NCBI RefSeq assembly: GCF_009914755.1
Contig: NC_060929.1
Length of the DNA stretch: 64,000 bases
DNA from: the human T2T-CHM13v2.0 reference genome, Homo sapiens
Strand: one strand, 5' to 3'
The notes under the pieces were generated by a model. The model had not been told where the DNA came from. It worked only from the letters and a program-made list of their open reading frames with translations, and searched no databases. This document shows positions 15,275 to 54,830 of this stretch, one piece after another (within the stretch, counting starts at the first letter, position 1; every line of letters begins with the position of its first letter). The position numbers were made by a program, and so were the translations under genes.

Positions 15275-18200
15275 GCGGGGGACAGGGTGATATTACTCCC
15301 CATATTTCGGGGGATGTGATATGGTTCATAATATCCAGGAAGAAAGAGCGTGATATTACTCCCCATATCGCAAGGGGTGTACACCCCTCTGTGATATGGT
15401 TTGTAATATCCAGGGAGGTAGAGGATGATATTTCTTTCCATATGGCAGGGGGTGTACATCCCCCAGTGATATGGTTCCTAATATCCAGAGCAGAAGAGGG
15501 TGATGTTACTCCCCATATCGTGGGGATTTAACATGGTTCGTATTAACCACAGAAAAAGATAGTAATATTACTCCCAATATCGTGGAGGGTGTACACCCCC
15601 CTGTGATATGGTTCATAATATCCAGGGCAGGATAGGGTCATATTACTCCCCATATTGCAAAGGGTGTACAGCCCCCTGTGATATGGTTCGTAATATCCAG
15701 GAGGGTGATATAACTTCCATATCGTGGGGGTTGTACACCCCACTGTGATATGGTTCATGATTCTCCAGCAGGTGAGAGGGTGATATTACCCCTAATATCA
15801 CGGGGAGTGTGATATTGTTCGTAATATCCAGGGAGAAAGAGGATGATATTAATCCCCATATCTCGGGGAGTGTACACTTCCCTGTGATATGGTTCGTAAT
15901 ATCCAGGGGGGGAGAGGGTGATATTACCTCCCATATCGCAGAGGGTGTACACCACCCTGTGATACAATTCATAATATCTGGGGGGGAGAGTGATTTTTGT
16001 CTCCATATCACGGGGGGTGCACACCCCACCTGTGATATGGTTCATAATATCAAGGGCGAGAGAGGGTGATATTACTCCCCATATCACGGGGGGTGTGAGA
16101 TGGTTCGCAATATCCAGGGAGGGAGAGGGTAATATTACTTCCCATATCGCAGGGGGTGTATATCACACTGTGATGTGTTTCCTAATATCTAGGAGAAGAG
16201 AGAATGATAGTACTCCCCATATCACGGGACGTGTACATCTCCCTGTGATATGGTTCATAATATCCAGAAGAAAGAGGGTGACATTACTCCTCATATGGGG
16301 GTAGTGTACACCCACCCATGATATGGTTCATAATATCCAGGGGGAGAAAGGGTGATATTATTCCCTATATCACAGAGGGGCATACACCCCTTTGTGATAT
16401 GGTTCCTAATATCCAAAGGGGAGATGGTGATATTAATCCCCATATCGCGGGGTGTACACCCCTCTGTTTTATGGTTTGTAATATCCAGGGTGGGAGATGG
16501 TGATATTACTCCCCATATCGCAGGGTGTGTACACCCCCCTGTGATATGATTTGTGATATTCAGGGGTAAGAGGGTAATGTTACTTTCCATATCGTGGGGG
16601 GTGTGATATGGTTCTTAATATCCAGGGGAAAAAAGGGTGATACTACTCTTCATATCGCTGGTGGTGTACACCCACTTGTGATATGGTTTGTAATATCGAG
16701 GGGGGTGATATTACTCACCATATCGCAGGGCGTGTACACCCCCTTGTGAAATTGTTGGTAATATCCAGAGGGTGAGGGGGTTATATTACACCCCATATTG
16801 CTGGGGTGTAATATAATTTTTAATATCCAGGGGGAAAAGGGTGATATTACTTCCTGTATCACAAGGACTGTACACCCCCCTGTGATGTGATTCATAATAT
16901 CTCGGTGGGAAAAAATGATATTTCTCCCCATGTCTCTGGGGGCGTACACCACCCTGTAATATCTTAAGGGGAAGAGGGTGATATTAGTTTCTATATCACA
17001 GAGGGTGTACACCCACCTGTGATATGGTTTGTAATATCTTGGGTGGGAGAGGAGGATATTACTCCCCATATTGCAGGGGGCATACACCTTCCTGTGATAT
17101 GGTTCATAATATCCCAGAAAGGAGAGGGGGATACTATTCCCCACATTGCAGGGGGCATACACCCTCCTGTGTTATGGTTCAAGATATCCCAGGGGTGAGA
17201 GGGTCATATTACTTTTCATATCGTGGATTGCATACATCCCCCCGTGATATGGTTTCTAGTATCCAAGGCGGGAGAGGGTGATACTCTCCATATCACAGGG
17301 GGTGTGCACCTCCCCCAAGGATATGGTTTATAGTATCCAGCGGGAGAGAGTAATATTTCTCCCCATATCGCGGGGGATGTACAGCCCCCTGTGATATGAT
17401 TCATAATATCTAGAAGGGGAGAGGGTGATACTCCCAATAACGTGGTTGGTGTAGTATGGTTTGTAATATTCAGGGGGAAGAGGGTGATATTACTCCCCAT
17501 ATCGCGGTGGGTGTACATCCTCCTGTGATATGGTTTGTAATATCTGGGGAGTGGGTGAAAGGATGATATTAATCTTCATATTGCGGTGGTGTACACCCCC
17601 CTGTAATATGGTTTGTAATATCAAGGGGGGGGAAGAATGATATTACTCCCCATGTCGGTGTATTGTACACCCTCCTGTGATATGGTTCATAATATCCAGG
17701 GAGGGAGAGGGTGATATTACTCCTCATATCACAAGTGGTGTGATATGGTTCATAATATCCAGGGGGGAGAGGGTAACATTACTCCTCATATCGTGGGGGG
17801 TGTACACACCCCTGTTATATGGTTCATAATATTTAAAGAAGGAAAGGGTGATATTACTTCCCATCCCACGGAAGGTGGTACACCTCTCTGTGATATGGTT
17901 CATAATATCCATGGGGGAGAGGGTGATATTACTCCCCCATATCACGAGTGATGTGATATGGTTTGTAATATCCTGGGGGAGAGTGGGTGCTATTACTCCT
18001 CATATCCTCAGGAGTGTATACACCCCTGTGATATGGTTCATAATATACGGGGTGGGAGAGGGTGATATTACTTCCCATACTGCCGAAAGTGTACACCATC
18101 TTGCGATATATTTTGTAATATCCAAGGAAGGAGAGGGTAATATTGTTCCCAATATCAGGGGGTGTGTACACTCTCCTATGATGTGGTTCATAATATCCAG

Positions 18201-52799: not shown

Positions 52800-54830
52800 T
52801 ATCATGGATATCATGCAAAATATCATCAATATTTTATTAATATCATAGTATGTTAAAACTAGGTATTATAAATATCATGGATATTTCATTAATATCTTAG
52901 TGTGTTAATACTGAGTATTAACATTTGTTATTATAAATATCATGTATATTTTATTAATACCATAATGTGTTCACACTGTGTTAACACTACATATTATAAA
53001 TATCAAAGATATTTTATTAATATCATAGTGTTTTAACACTGGATATCATAAATATCAAGATATTTTATTAATATCGTGTGTTAACACTAGATGTTATAAA
53101 TATCATTGATTTTTTAATATCATAGTGTTTTCACTAGATATTATAAATATTGTAGATATTTTATAAATAACTTAGCACTGTGTGTTAATACTAGATATTA
53201 TAAATATCATGGATATTTCATTAATATACTGTGTTAACACTGTGTGTTAATACTAGATATAATTATCACAGATATTTTCTTAATATCATAGTGTGTTAAA
53301 ACTAGACATTATAAATATCATTATATTTTATTATTATTAGTAATATCTCAGTGTGTTAACATTAGGTATTATAAAATCATGGATATTTCAATAATATCAC
53401 AGTGTGTTAACACTAGATATTATGAATGTCATTGATATTTTATTAATATCGTAGTGTGTTAACACTAGATATTTTGAATATCATAATAACTGTGTTAAAA
53501 CACAGGATTAACACTAGATATTATAAATATCAGAGATATTTTGTTAGTATCATAATGTGTTAACACTAGATATTATAAATATCAAATATTTTATTAATAT
53601 CATAGTGGGTTTAACACTGTGTTTTAACTCTAGATATTACAAATATCAAAGATATCTTATGAATATCATAGTGTGTTTACATCAGATATTTTAAATATCA
53701 TGGATATTTTATTCATATCATAGTGTGTCACCACTAGATATTATAAATATCATGGCTATTTCATGAATGTCATAGTATGTTAACACTCTGTGTTAACTCT
53801 GGATATAGTAATTATCATGTATATTTTCTTAATATCATAGCATGTTATCACTAGATATAAATATCATCATATCTTGTTAATATCTTAGTGTGTTAACACT
53901 AGATATTTAAAATATTATGGATATTTCATTAATATCCTAGTATGTTAACACTTGATATTATAAATATCATGGATACTTTATTAATGTCATATTGTGTTAA
54001 CACTATGTGATACATTACATATGATTATTATGGATTTATTATTAGTATCACAGGTGTTAACACAAGATATTATAAATATAATGGATATTTTATTAATAGT
54101 ATAGTGTTAAAACTGAATATTTTATTAGTATCATAGTGTGTTAACCCTAGATATTATAAATATGGAAATTTTATTAATATCATAGTTTGTTAACACTAGA
54201 TATTATAAATATGGAAATTTTATTAATATCATTGTGTGTTAACACTGTGTGTAAACACTAGAGATTATAAATATCATATTTTATTAATATCATTGTGTGT
54301 TTACATTAATAAATATCATAGGTATTTTATGGATATCATAGTGTGTAAACACTGTGTGTTAACTTCAGATATTATAAATATCATAGATATTTTCTTAGTA
54401 TCATAATGTGTTAACCCTGTGTGTTAACACTGTATATTATAAATATCTTAGTTTTTTTTTAATATCATAGTGTGTTTACACTGTATGTTAACACAAGGTC
54501 ATGTAAATATCATACATATTTTCTTAATATCATAGTATGTTATCACTACCTAAGACAAATATAAAGATATTTTCTCAATATCATAGTGTGTTAACACTAG
54601 ATATTATAAATATCATAGATATTTTATTAATATCACAGTGTGTTAAAACTAGATATTTTAAATGTCTTAGATATTTTATTAATATCATATTGTGTTAACA
54701 CTAGATATTATAAATATTATAGATATTTTATTAACATAGTGTGGTAACACTGTATTAACACTTGATATTATTATAAATATTTTAGATATTTTATTAACAT
54801 AGTGTATTATATATGATATTATCTATATAT
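52800..54830 (+). repeat. AT-rich GTTAAC-centred minisatellite, outer layer of the array
   Basis: ATATCATAGTGTGTTAACACTAGATATTATAAATATCATAGATATTTTATTA; reverse complement of the 7421-10488 unit. Confidence 0.88.

What the first reader, a model, noticed from the sequence alone, without database searches (positions are those of the whole stretch)
15275..54830. Satellite monomers are hairpins whose two arms co-vary between variants
Seen: monomers carry a ~35-bp quasi-palindrome, and when the monomer type changes both arms change together. B1 is CCATATCGCAGGGG-TGTACA-CCCCTGTGATATGG (e.g. 15363-15399). B2 is CAATATCGCAG...CTGTGATATTG (19330-19366). C is CCATGGGGC...GCCCCATGG (31864-31901), with 3-4 paired substitutions. 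D is CCATGTGGCGG...CCGCCATATGG (34776-34812). A is TAATATCACAG...CTGTGATATTA. A second stem, GTAATATC...GATATTAC, flanks the purine-rich spacer. Inference: structure is kept while sequence turns over, through arm-to-arm correction, selection on a DNA cruciform or RNA hairpin, or hairpin-dependent amplification. SATR1/2 are known repeat families; I cannot check whether this covariation has been described.
Basis: partly seen in the sequence, partly recalled or inferred. Interest (0 to 1): 0.85.

Follow-up and report, generated by a model that had tools for sequence, protein, structure and literature searches.

The report
Palindromic satellite with founder-level arm covariation
An old human satellite repeat is built from hairpin-shaped units whose two arms changed in matching ways when new repeat subtypes arose, but today's copies simply decay at random, so the pattern is a fossil of how the repeat once spread rather than a sign of present function.

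Summary
About 514 monomers (63-78 bp) tile 15275-52800. Each is a quasi-palindrome with an inner and an outer stem, and every subtype consensus folds the same way.

Between subtypes, 7 of 10 inner-stem pairs show two Watson-Crick types. That is 7 against 1.4-1.6 expected on a curated ladder of 8 consensi (P about 1e-4). In an unbiased scan of 390 blocks it is 7 against 2.7 (P 0.0018).

The arms did not strictly change together. One-armed intermediates were themselves amplified, and about two thirds of block-level arm variants are uncompensated.

Within arrays there is no covariation beyond phylogeny:
- Double changes were 214 against 213.5 expected.
- A tree-based null is not exceeded.
- An arm pairs as well with a neighbour's arm (0.733-0.737) as with its own (0.7375).
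- Conservation follows base identity, not pairing.

Best reading: rare arm-to-arm templated copying, or a hairpin filter, acted only in founder copies, followed by neutral decay. Interest is moderate. The "SATR1/2" label could not be checked with these tools.

The parts
15275..18200 (+). B1 block. Inner arms CCATATCGCG / CTGTGATATGG. Includes 63-bp forms that lack the centre.
   Evidence: example 15363-15399 folded.
18200..31560 (+). B2 block. Inner arms CAATATCGCAG / CTGTGATATTG. The commonest type. Short inverted stretches at 24564-24665 and 24823-24880.
   Evidence: example 19330-19366.
31560..32625 (+). C block, 10-12 monomers. Arms CCATGGGGC / GCCCCATGG, with three new G-C pairs at columns 16-45, 17-44 and 18-43. 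Private to this locus among what was searched.
   Evidence: example 31864-31901.
32680..34420 (+). A' block (63- and 76-bp forms). Arms TAATGTCACAG / CTGTGATATTA, a short spacer, and a G16.T45 wobble.
34418..35565 (+). D block. Arms CCATGTGGCGG / CCGCCATATGG, with new G-C pairs at 18-43 and 21-40. Holds 'X' intermediates (3' arm TGCC).
   Evidence: example 34776-34812.
35565..36140 (+). D2 block, 8 monomers. The 5' arm is already D-like while the 3' arm still has the ancestral CTGCG form. This is a one-armed intermediate with a G18xG43 mismatch.
36140..40345 (+). A'/A blocks (63-, 76- and 78-bp forms), with an inverted stretch at 36174-36521.
40345..48470 (+). B2 blocks, with a B1 insert at 42050-43100.
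48500..52800 (+). A blocks. Arms TAATATCACAG / CTGTGATATTA, with a duplicated GTGTACAC centre in the 76-bp forms. Inverted stretch at 50173-50944.
49382..49472 (-). Annotated MIR5692C1 precursor. It is the spacer-centred dyad, made of the 3' half of one A monomer paired with the 5' half of the next.
   Evidence: Hub annotation. Folds at -42.9 kcal/mol, z -9.2; the + strand gives -37.0, z -7.9. No Rfam hit at gathering threshold.
52818..54830 (-). AT-rich relative (about 48-63-bp units) with the same two-dyad layout. It is in the opposite orientation to the left-flank array at 8119-10446.
3766..10487 (.). Left-flank relatives. A-like units on the - strand (3766-5565), then 54-bp (5812-7674) and 55-57-bp (8119-10446) AT-rich units that keep both dyads. 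TRF consensi show a further matched change, CAGTGT...ACACTG against TAGTGT...ACACTA.

Best explanation
This is an old, dispersed primate satellite. Its 63-78-bp monomer is a double-dyad quasi-palindrome:
- an inner stem of about 15 bp around a TGTACA centre;
- a 3x3 internal loop;
- an invariant 8-bp outer stem;
- a purine-rich spacer.

Because the unit is periodic, a second dyad lies on the spacer.

New subtypes arose from single founder monomers. In a few founder lineages, a change in one arm was later matched in the other arm. I infer that this happened by arm-to-arm templated copying: either an intrastrand or fork template switch at the quasi-palindrome, or conversion between inverted arms. 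The founders were then amplified into blocks. After amplification nothing maintained the hairpin, and the copies have decayed neutrally, with G/C sites decaying fastest.

What is shown and what is inferred:
- Shown: the architecture, the founder-level excess of matched pairs, the amplified intermediates, and the absence of any monomer-level signal.
- Inferred: the copying mechanism, and that it was coupled to the period of amplification.
For: Architecture:
- All eight subtype consensus cores fold into the same two-stem hairpin, with z of -6 to -9.5.
- The AT-rich flank relatives keep both dyads.

Founder-level covariation:
- 7 pairs have two Watson-Crick types (12-49, 13-48, 16-45, 17-44, 18-43, 19-42, 21-40).
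- On the curated ladder the null gives 1.41 pairs (2 of 20000 simulations reach 7).
- With column-specific mutability the null gives 1.56 (1 of 20000).
- 153 of 168 cells are Watson-Crick, against 121-128 in the nulls.
- Three of the 7 are transversion pairs, which mutation pressure cannot produce (3 against 0.53, P 0.0036).
- The unbiased scan covers 2397 monomers, 390 blocks and 51 events. It gives 7 against 2.67 +/- 1.33, P 0.0018.

Signs of episodic, lineage-specific copying:
- Four of the 7 pairs lie in one local lineage, D2 -> X -> D and C, inside 31.5-36.1 kb.
- Those types were not found elsewhere in the genome search. The best outside matches were at most 75% identical.
- In C, the 9-nt 3' arm tract is the exact reverse complement of the 5' arm. 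The two adjacent changes at columns 44 and 45 both restore pairing.

The mechanism is documented elsewhere. Template switching that creates and repairs hairpin stems is described in PMC8794818 (outline, abstract and opening paragraphs read) and PMC5453318 (search listing only). Quasi-palindrome correction in yeast is in PMC3820800 (search listing only).

Neutral decay afterwards.
Against: - Intermediates show that the matching came in single steps, not in one multi-base tract. The 3' arm went TGCG -> TGCC -> CGCC, and B2 -> B3 -> B1. Each step could be an ordinary point substitution that a filter retained.
- If template switching were a plain property of the sequence, it should also be visible in about 17,000 post-amplification substitutions. 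It is not. The mechanism therefore has to be tied to the amplification phase, which is an extra assumption.
- Only about one third of block-level arm variants are matched. 38 events fall in paired columns and roughly 14 take part in matched pairs.
- A chr18 block carries only unmatched changes.
- Subtype B3, with a C x T mismatch, was amplified at five loci.
- The ladder was built by hand from the same columns it tests. The unbiased P is only 0.0018.
- The direction of change along the ladder is not known.
Confidence: 0.45

Rival explanations
1. Hairpin-dependent amplification acts as a filter. Mutations fall at random in all monomers. Only monomers whose arms still pair well, in single-stranded DNA or in RNA, are picked up by the process that makes new blocks. 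Founders are therefore enriched for matched or wobble pairs.
For: - There is a strong contrast between founders (153 of 168 cells Watson-Crick) and present copies (about 74% paired). A filter explains this without any special mutation process.
- The restorations came step by step, and each step raised stem stability. RNA free energies of the consensi run -27.5, -32.3, -39.9 and -41.5 kcal/mol along B2, B1, D and C.
- Block-level amplified mismatches lean to G.T on the spacer-purine strand (7 G.T: 2 A.C: 5 other). Private mismatches do not (569: 582).
Against: - Mismatched subtypes were amplified freely. B3, with a C x T mismatch, has 107 copies at five loci. D2 has a G x G mismatch. A chr18 block has unmatched changes.
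- A pure filter should mostly pass founders that changed in loops. Instead, half of the ladder substitutions (15 of 29) fall in the 20 inner-stem columns.
- The 7:2 lean is weak (about P 0.09 by my own reckoning; no call computed it).
Confidence: 0.25
2. Mirror-symmetric mutation pressure plus chance. In a palindrome, partner sites sit in reverse-complement contexts and share mutability. Under GC-to-AT transition pressure, or CpG decay on both strands, a G-C pair drifts to A-T through G.T or A.C. Matched pairs then appear with no constraint.
For: - Four of the 7 covarying pairs are transition doubles (12-49, 16-45, 19-42, 21-40).
- G/C columns diverge 2-3 times faster than A/T columns, and CpG faster still.
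- Among private double changes, the CpG pair 19-42 (G-C to A-T) recurs.
- All changes along the ladder are one-directional in GC content, whichever end is the root.
- The unbiased null already expects 2.7 such pairs.
Against: - The nulls keep substitution types, and also column-specific mutability. They still give P 5e-5 (curated ladder) and 0.0018 (unbiased scan).
- Three pairs are transversion doubles (13-48, 17-44, 18-43). Transition pressure cannot make those (P 0.0036).
- At the monomer level, where the same pressure acts, double hits equal the independent expectation (214 against 213.5).
Confidence: 0.15
3. Ongoing functional constraint. The hairpin is kept today because it acts as a cruciform, a structured RNA or small-RNA precursor, or a palindromic site for a dimeric protein.
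For: - One hairpin in the array is annotated as MIR5692C1 and folds very well.
- Passages read in two preprints report ChIP signal of ZNF141 and ZBTB24 over SATR1/2.
Against: - There is no excess of compensatory change once relatedness is controlled.
- An arm pairs with its own partner no better than with a neighbour's arm: 0.7375 against 0.733-0.737 on about 20,000 cells each.
- Unpaired A/T columns are as conserved as paired ones.
- Private mismatches show no wobble preference.
- About a quarter of stem pairs are already broken.
Confidence: 0.05

Closest known systems
Template-switch (quasi-palindrome) mutations that create and repair hairpin stems (Monttinen and Loytynoja 2022, PMC8794818; Loytynoja and Goldman 2017, PMC5453318; yeast quasi-palindrome mutations, PMC3820800)
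   Same: - Nearby inverted arms.
- A changed tract in one arm that equals the reverse complement of the other.
- Multi-base 'compensation' with no need for selection.
   Different: - Here the substrate is a tandem satellite monomer, not an RNA gene.
- The events are seen only in founders of amplified subtypes.
- Intermediates suggest single-step restorations.
- No event can be assigned to a single branch with the data at hand.
SATR1/SATR2 satellites as described in primate T2T work (macaque preprint 10.1101/2025.08.04.668424, passages read; Xiao/DA duplicons in PMC5088589 and PMC2700803, passages read)
   Same: - Interstitial mixed arrays of two monomer classes.
- Dispersal to many chromosomes.
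- Inverted ('palindromic') array configurations.
   Different: - The passages I read describe array-level structure only. I saw nothing there on monomer dyads or arm covariation.
No Dfam or RepeatMasker library was available.
Dyad-symmetric satellites proposed to form cruciforms or non-B DNA at centromeres (recalled, not from a call)
   Same: Short inverted repeats inside satellite monomers.
   Different: - This family is interstitial.
- Nearly the whole monomer is palindromic, with two dyads.
- Subtypes carry different but matched arms.
Repeat-derived miRNA hairpins (MIR5692C1 in this window; mir-3683 from SATR1 per PMC3059204, passage read; mir-548 from MADE1, recalled)
   Same: A palindromic repeat unit supplies a ready-made precursor-like hairpin.
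   Different: - The precursor here uses the spacer-centred dyad across two adjacent monomers.
- There is no Rfam family hit.
- There is no sign that the array as a whole is constrained for this.
Arm-to-arm gene conversion in large palindromes such as those of the Y chromosome (recalled)
   Same: Inverted arms kept alike by copying one from the other.
   Different: - The arms here are about 15 bp, far below the usual length for homologous recombination.
- No ongoing homogenisation is seen.

Membership tests
SATR1/SATR2 (Dfam/RepeatMasker satellite families) | Significant match to the family consensus models | not testable with these tools
No repeat library was available, and the hub table gives no family names.
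SATR1/SATR2 (Dfam/RepeatMasker satellite families) | Interstitial mixed arrays of two classes, dispersed over many chromosomes, often in inverted configuration | tested here: met
   - Related arrays were found on at least 15 chromosomes.
- A and B classes are mixed within arrays.
- Orientation switches occur within arrays.
- This matches passages of 10.1101/2025.08.04.668424.
Structured RNA or DNA element under selection (R-scape-type criterion) | Covariation at paired columns above what the phylogeny alone gives | tested here: not met
   - Monomer level: 214 double changes against 213.5 expected.
- Same-branch doubles: 174 with 39 compensatory, against null 203.9 with 45.5.
- Own arm against neighbour's arm: 0.7375 against 0.733-0.737.
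- The criterion is met only between subtype founders.
Structured RNA or DNA element under selection (R-scape-type criterion) | Paired columns more conserved than unpaired ones of like composition | tested here: not met
   Unpaired T9, T50 and T51 are 0.90-0.96 conserved, like paired A/T columns. G/C columns are 0.6-0.88 whether paired or not.
Template-switch / quasi-palindrome mutation | Inverted arms close together, with the derived tract identical to the reverse complement of the partner arm | tested here: met
   The 3' arms of the C and D consensi equal the reverse complement of their 5' arms, apart from one or two G.T positions.
Template-switch / quasi-palindrome mutation | Several changes introduced in one event on one branch | tested here: inconclusive
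   Columns 44 and 45 change together in C. However, D2, X and B3 show single-step intermediates. A tree of 76-nt monomers is too noisy to place events.
mir-5692 miRNA family | Precursor-like hairpin at the annotated locus | tested here: met
   91 nt, -42.9 kcal/mol, z -9.2. Annotation from the hub table.
mir-5692 miRNA family | Match to a curated RNA family model | tested here: not met
   The Rfam 15 gathering-threshold scan of the whole window gave 0 matches.

The most novel reading that the evidence does not exclude
The ability of a monomer of this satellite to be amplified depended on a strand-specific hairpin that tolerates wobble pairs. The hairpin would form in single-stranded DNA of the spacer-purine strand during replication, or in its transcript. 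Satellite subtypes then evolved like structured RNAs: break, wobble, restore.

Hints:
- Founder-level matched pairs are in excess.
- Stem stability rises stepwise along the ladder.
- Amplified mismatches lean to G.T on one strand (7:2). Private mismatches do not (569:582).
Probability: 0.12. Interest if true: 0.7.

Novelty: new member of a known kind. Interest (0 to 1): 0.4.

Why it matters
If the founder-level matching is real, this family is a clean natural record of a hairpin-linked process that works only while a satellite is expanding. That process could be template switching at quasi-palindromes or hairpin-dependent amplification. The record can be separated from the neutral decay that follows.

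This bears on how satellites arise and diversify. It also bears on why such arrays are prone to inversions and yield miRNA-like hairpins.

The result is also a caution. Raw covariation in tandem repeats (188 against 94 cells) mostly reflects a handful of inherited events and must not be read as present-day structural constraint.

Tried and rejected
- **Rfam scan of the window:** no hits at gathering threshold.
- **Mutual information over all column pairs:** 13-48 ranks first (0.445), but many unpaired subtype-marker pairs are also high. Raw MI is therefore confounded by subtype structure.
- **Shuffle control of the count of structure pairs:** it is exceeded on cells and score (0 of 500). It is not exceeded on the number of pairs with both-sided change (16 against 16.8; 388 of 500 shuffles as high). 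The tool itself warns that related sequences can exceed every shuffle.
- **Inversion plus crossover between a B3 monomer and an inverted B3 monomer as the source of B1:** the predicted mirror form (A13 x G48) occurs only as 67 scattered singletons of 2253 monomers, never as a block. The idea is unsupported but not excluded.
- **Strand-biased wobble as evidence for an RNA hairpin:** absent in private changes (569 against 582, P 0.72). It is weak at block level (7:2).
- **Dating and rooting the subtypes from divergence to their own consensus:** all subtypes are alike (A/T sites 0.05-0.10). No order could be inferred.
- **Searching for C and D types elsewhere:** none found. Only the best candidates are scored, and only 200 kb of other loci were read.
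- **Literature:** searches for SATR1/SATR2, for 'satellite DNA' + compensatory + 'dyad symmetry' (0 papers), for SATR + 'inverted repeats' + non-B, and for miR-5692 + satellite found no description of monomer arm covariation. Subscription journals and supplements were not covered.
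Full report
**What is there**

The window is human T2T chr5:136276001-136340000 (hub note; confirmed). From 15275 to about 52800 it holds one tandem array. A profile built from 35 seed monomers tiles it with 514 units, 493 on the + strand. TRF gives periods of 63, 75-78 and multiples of these.

The 76-column model reads as follows:
- an outer 5' arm (columns 1-8);
- a 3-nt internal loop;
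- an inner 5' arm (12-26);
- a TGTACA centre (27-32);
- an inner 3' arm (33-49);
- a 3-nt loop;
- an outer 3' arm (53-60);
- a purine-rich spacer.

Sixty of the 76 positions therefore form one long quasi-palindrome. Because the unit is periodic, a second dyad sits on the spacer. The annotated MIR5692C1 precursor (49382-49472, - strand) is exactly that spacer-centred hairpin across two neighbouring A-type units. It folds at -42.9 kcal/mol with z -9.2.

**Check of the observation**

The four cited examples are at their coordinates and fold at -18.6 to -27.8 kcal/mol. Block consensi reproduce types B1, B2, C, D and A at the places given, each with its own complementary arms. Present monomers keep a mean z near -1.9 on either strand, with RNA or DNA parameters (153 of 459 folded). 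All eight subtype consensus cores fold into the same two-stem shape with z of -6 to -9.5. AT-rich relatives in both flanks (3766-10487 and 52818-54830) keep the two dyads with arms that differ again.

**Covariation between subtypes**

In the table of eight consensi, seven of the ten inner-stem pairs carry two Watson-Crick types:

| Pair | Types |
|---|---|
| 12-49 | C-G / T-A |
| 13-48 | A-T / C-G |
| 16-45 | A-T / G-C |
| 17-44 | T-A / G-C |
| 18-43 | C-G / G-C |
| 19-42 | A-T / G-C |
| 21-40 | A-T / G-C |

The outer stem never varies between subtypes.

I tested this in two ways.

*Curated ladder.* I built a hand-made parsimony ladder, A'-A-B2-B3-B1-D2-X-D/C, with 29 substitutions. I then re-placed each substitution on a random column with the same ancestral base.
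- This null gives 1.41 covarying pairs. Two of 20000 simulations reach 7.
- It gives 121 +/- 6 paired cells, against 153 of 168 observed.
- Weighting the column choice by the private mutability of each column and change type gives 1.56 pairs (1 of 20000) and 128 +/- 6 paired cells.
- The three transversion pairs alone give P 0.0036.

*Unbiased scan.* The ladder and the choice of subtypes were guided by the very pattern under test. I therefore repeated the test without choosing subtypes. The data were 2397 monomers from the window and 22 other stretches, cut into 390 blocks of six. These gave 51 distinct block-majority derived states, 38 of them in paired columns. The result is 7 covarying pairs against 2.67 +/- 1.33, P 0.0018.

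The signal is real but moderate. It rests on few events.

**The arms did not strictly change together**

Several intermediates with only one arm changed were themselves amplified.
- Subtype B3 has the B1 5' arm with the B2 3' arm, giving a C13 x T48 mismatch. Of 142 such monomers, 107 lie at five loci (chr14, chr8, chr4, chr7, chr9). Those loci hold almost no B1 (0-2 monomers each).
- D2 (35565-36140) has the D-type 5' arm but an ancestral 3' arm, giving G18 x G43.
- The next step, 'X' (3' arm TGCC), is present in several monomers of the D and D2 blocks.

Restoration therefore came in single steps, and mismatched forms could still be amplified.

Other evidence against universal matching:
- About two thirds of block-level arm variants are unmatched.
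- A chr18 block carries only unmatched changes.

Four of the seven pairs belong to one local lineage (D2, X, D, C) within 31.5-36.1 kb. Types C and D were not found at other loci. That search has limits: only the best candidates are scored, and only about 200 kb of other loci were read.

**No covariation within arrays once relatedness is controlled**

- *Nearest-neighbour contrasts, window only.* 194 contrasts gave 67 double changes at pairs against 65.3 expected. Nine were Watson-Crick to Watson-Crick, against 4-13 when the partner column is slid.
- *Nearest-neighbour contrasts, all monomers.* All 2253 monomers gave 822 contrasts, with 214 double changes against 213.5 expected. Thirty-nine were Watson-Crick to Watson-Crick, against 9-30 when slid. 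This is a weak excess. It includes the CpG pair 19-42 and B1/B2 mix-ups.
- *Tree-based null.* On a FastTree of the 2253 monomers with 16854 parsimony substitutions, same-branch double changes do not exceed an R-scape-like null. Each cell gives all double changes, then the compensatory ones:

| Descendant leaves of the branch | Observed | Null |
|---|---|---|
| Terminal (1) | 174, 39 | 203.9, 45.5 |
| 2-4 | 22, 6 | 33.9, 9.1 |
| 5-19 | 2, 0 | 5.2, 2.1 |
| 20 or more | 1, 1 | 0.6, 0.35 |

- *Own arm against neighbour's arm.* This is the cleanest control. The 5' arm of monomer k pairs with its own 3' arm in 73.75% of cells. It pairs with the 3' arm of monomers k-4 to k+4 in 73.3-73.7% of cells, on about 18,000-22,000 cells each.
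- *Conservation.* It follows base identity. A/T columns are 0.90-0.96 conserved whether paired or not, and G/C columns 0.6-0.88.
- *Mismatch type.* Private one-sided transitions give 569 G.T and 582 A.C mismatches (P 0.72).
- *The tool's own counts.* The count on 116 evenly picked monomers shows why raw numbers mislead. Both-sided cells are 188 against 94 in shuffles (0 of 500). The number of pairs with any both-sided change is 16 against 16.8 (388 of 500).

**How it most likely works**

- *Shown:* a double-dyad unit; a founder-level excess of matched arms; amplified intermediates; neutral decay afterwards.
- *Inferred:* in a few founder lineages, one arm was copied from the other. This could be a replication template switch at the quasi-palindrome or a conversion between inverted arms. 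Both are documented ways to make and mend hairpin stems (PMC8794818: outline, abstract and opening paragraphs read; PMC5453318 and PMC3820800: search listing only).

Points in favour:
- The events are clustered in one lineage.
- The C-type 3' arm is an exact reverse complement of its 5' arm.
- Columns 44 and 45 change together.

Points against:
- The intermediates are single-step.
- No such events appear among about 17,000 later substitutions, so the process must be tied to the amplification phase.

The main rival is a filter, in which only monomers with good hairpins are amplified. It explains the contrast between founders and copies. It also fits the rising stem stability along the ladder and the weak lean of amplified mismatches to G.T (7:2:5). 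It sits badly with the free amplification of B3 and D2.

Mirror-symmetric mutation pressure can account for up to four transition pairs. It cannot account for the three transversion pairs.

Ongoing function is disfavoured by all the monomer-level tests.

**Comparison with what is known**

No repeat library was available to test it. The dispersal, the mixing of two classes and the orientation switches do fit the passages I read in the macaque T2T preprint and the Xiao/DA papers.

None of the searches nor the passages read describe monomer dyads or arm covariation in this family.

The phenomenon is a new instance of a known kind: hairpin arms kept complementary by templated mutation or by a structural filter.

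**Verdict**

- The pattern is a fossil of the expansion era, not evidence of present structure-function.
- Interest is moderate (0.4).

Noticed in passing
window 3766-10487 and 52818-54830: The main array is bracketed by related AT-rich arrays (48-63-bp units). These lie in opposite orientations on the two sides. A-like units on the - strand lie at 3766-5565. The region from 3.7 to 54.8 kb therefore has a large inverted configuration around a unique stretch (10.5-15.2 kb) that ends in an Alu-like repeat at 15139-15278.
   Followed up: partly
window 24564-24665, 24823-24880, 36174-36521, 50173-50944: Short stretches of monomers in the - orientation lie inside the + array. Several other loci (L017, L019, L020, L024) switch orientation in mid-array. 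Because the core is palindromic, the strand call rests mainly on the spacer, so some calls are uncertain (for example 19394-19452).
   Followed up: partly
window 49382-49472 (-): The annotated MIR5692C1 precursor is the spacer-centred dyad spanning two adjacent A-type monomers. Both strands fold very well (z -9.2 and -7.9). No Rfam model matches it.
   Followed up: yes
window 15289-15351, 15782-15844, 16068-16130 and other units in the B1 blocks: 63-bp B1 units recur every few monomers. They lack about 13 nt of the centre and the C-run but keep the AT-rich part of the inner stem. TRF reports higher-order periods of about 212 and 286 here.
   Followed up: no
L017, L018, L019, L020, L024 against L009, L011, L021-L023 and the window: Subtype B3 (C13 x T48) and subtype B1 (C13-G48) almost exclude each other between loci. 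Loci rich in B3 hold 0-2 B1 monomers, and loci rich in B1 hold 0-5 B3 monomers.
   Followed up: partly
L030 2026-2487 (chr18): A six-monomer local variant has a TGTCCA centre, a G at column 46 (T.G wobble) and a C at column 59 (A x C). None of these changes is matched in the partner arm.
   Followed up: partly
whole array, and L009-L026: Divergence from the subtype consensus is about 0.05-0.10 at A/T sites, 0.15-0.27 at non-CpG G/C sites and 0.23-0.51 at CpG sites. It is much the same in all subtypes. All blocks therefore look similarly old and are losing G+C.
   Followed up: partly
window, hub masking note: NCBI's soft-masking covers only 9% of the window, although satellite units tile roughly 15.3-52.8 kb plus both flanks. 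Masked-sequence analyses would treat most of this array as unique DNA.
   Followed up: no
L011 2114-6379 and L023 2056-4977: A B1 sub-variant with the centre changed from TGTACA to CGTACA or CATACA has been amplified at chr19 and chr6. This adds a CpG at the dyad centre.
   Followed up: no
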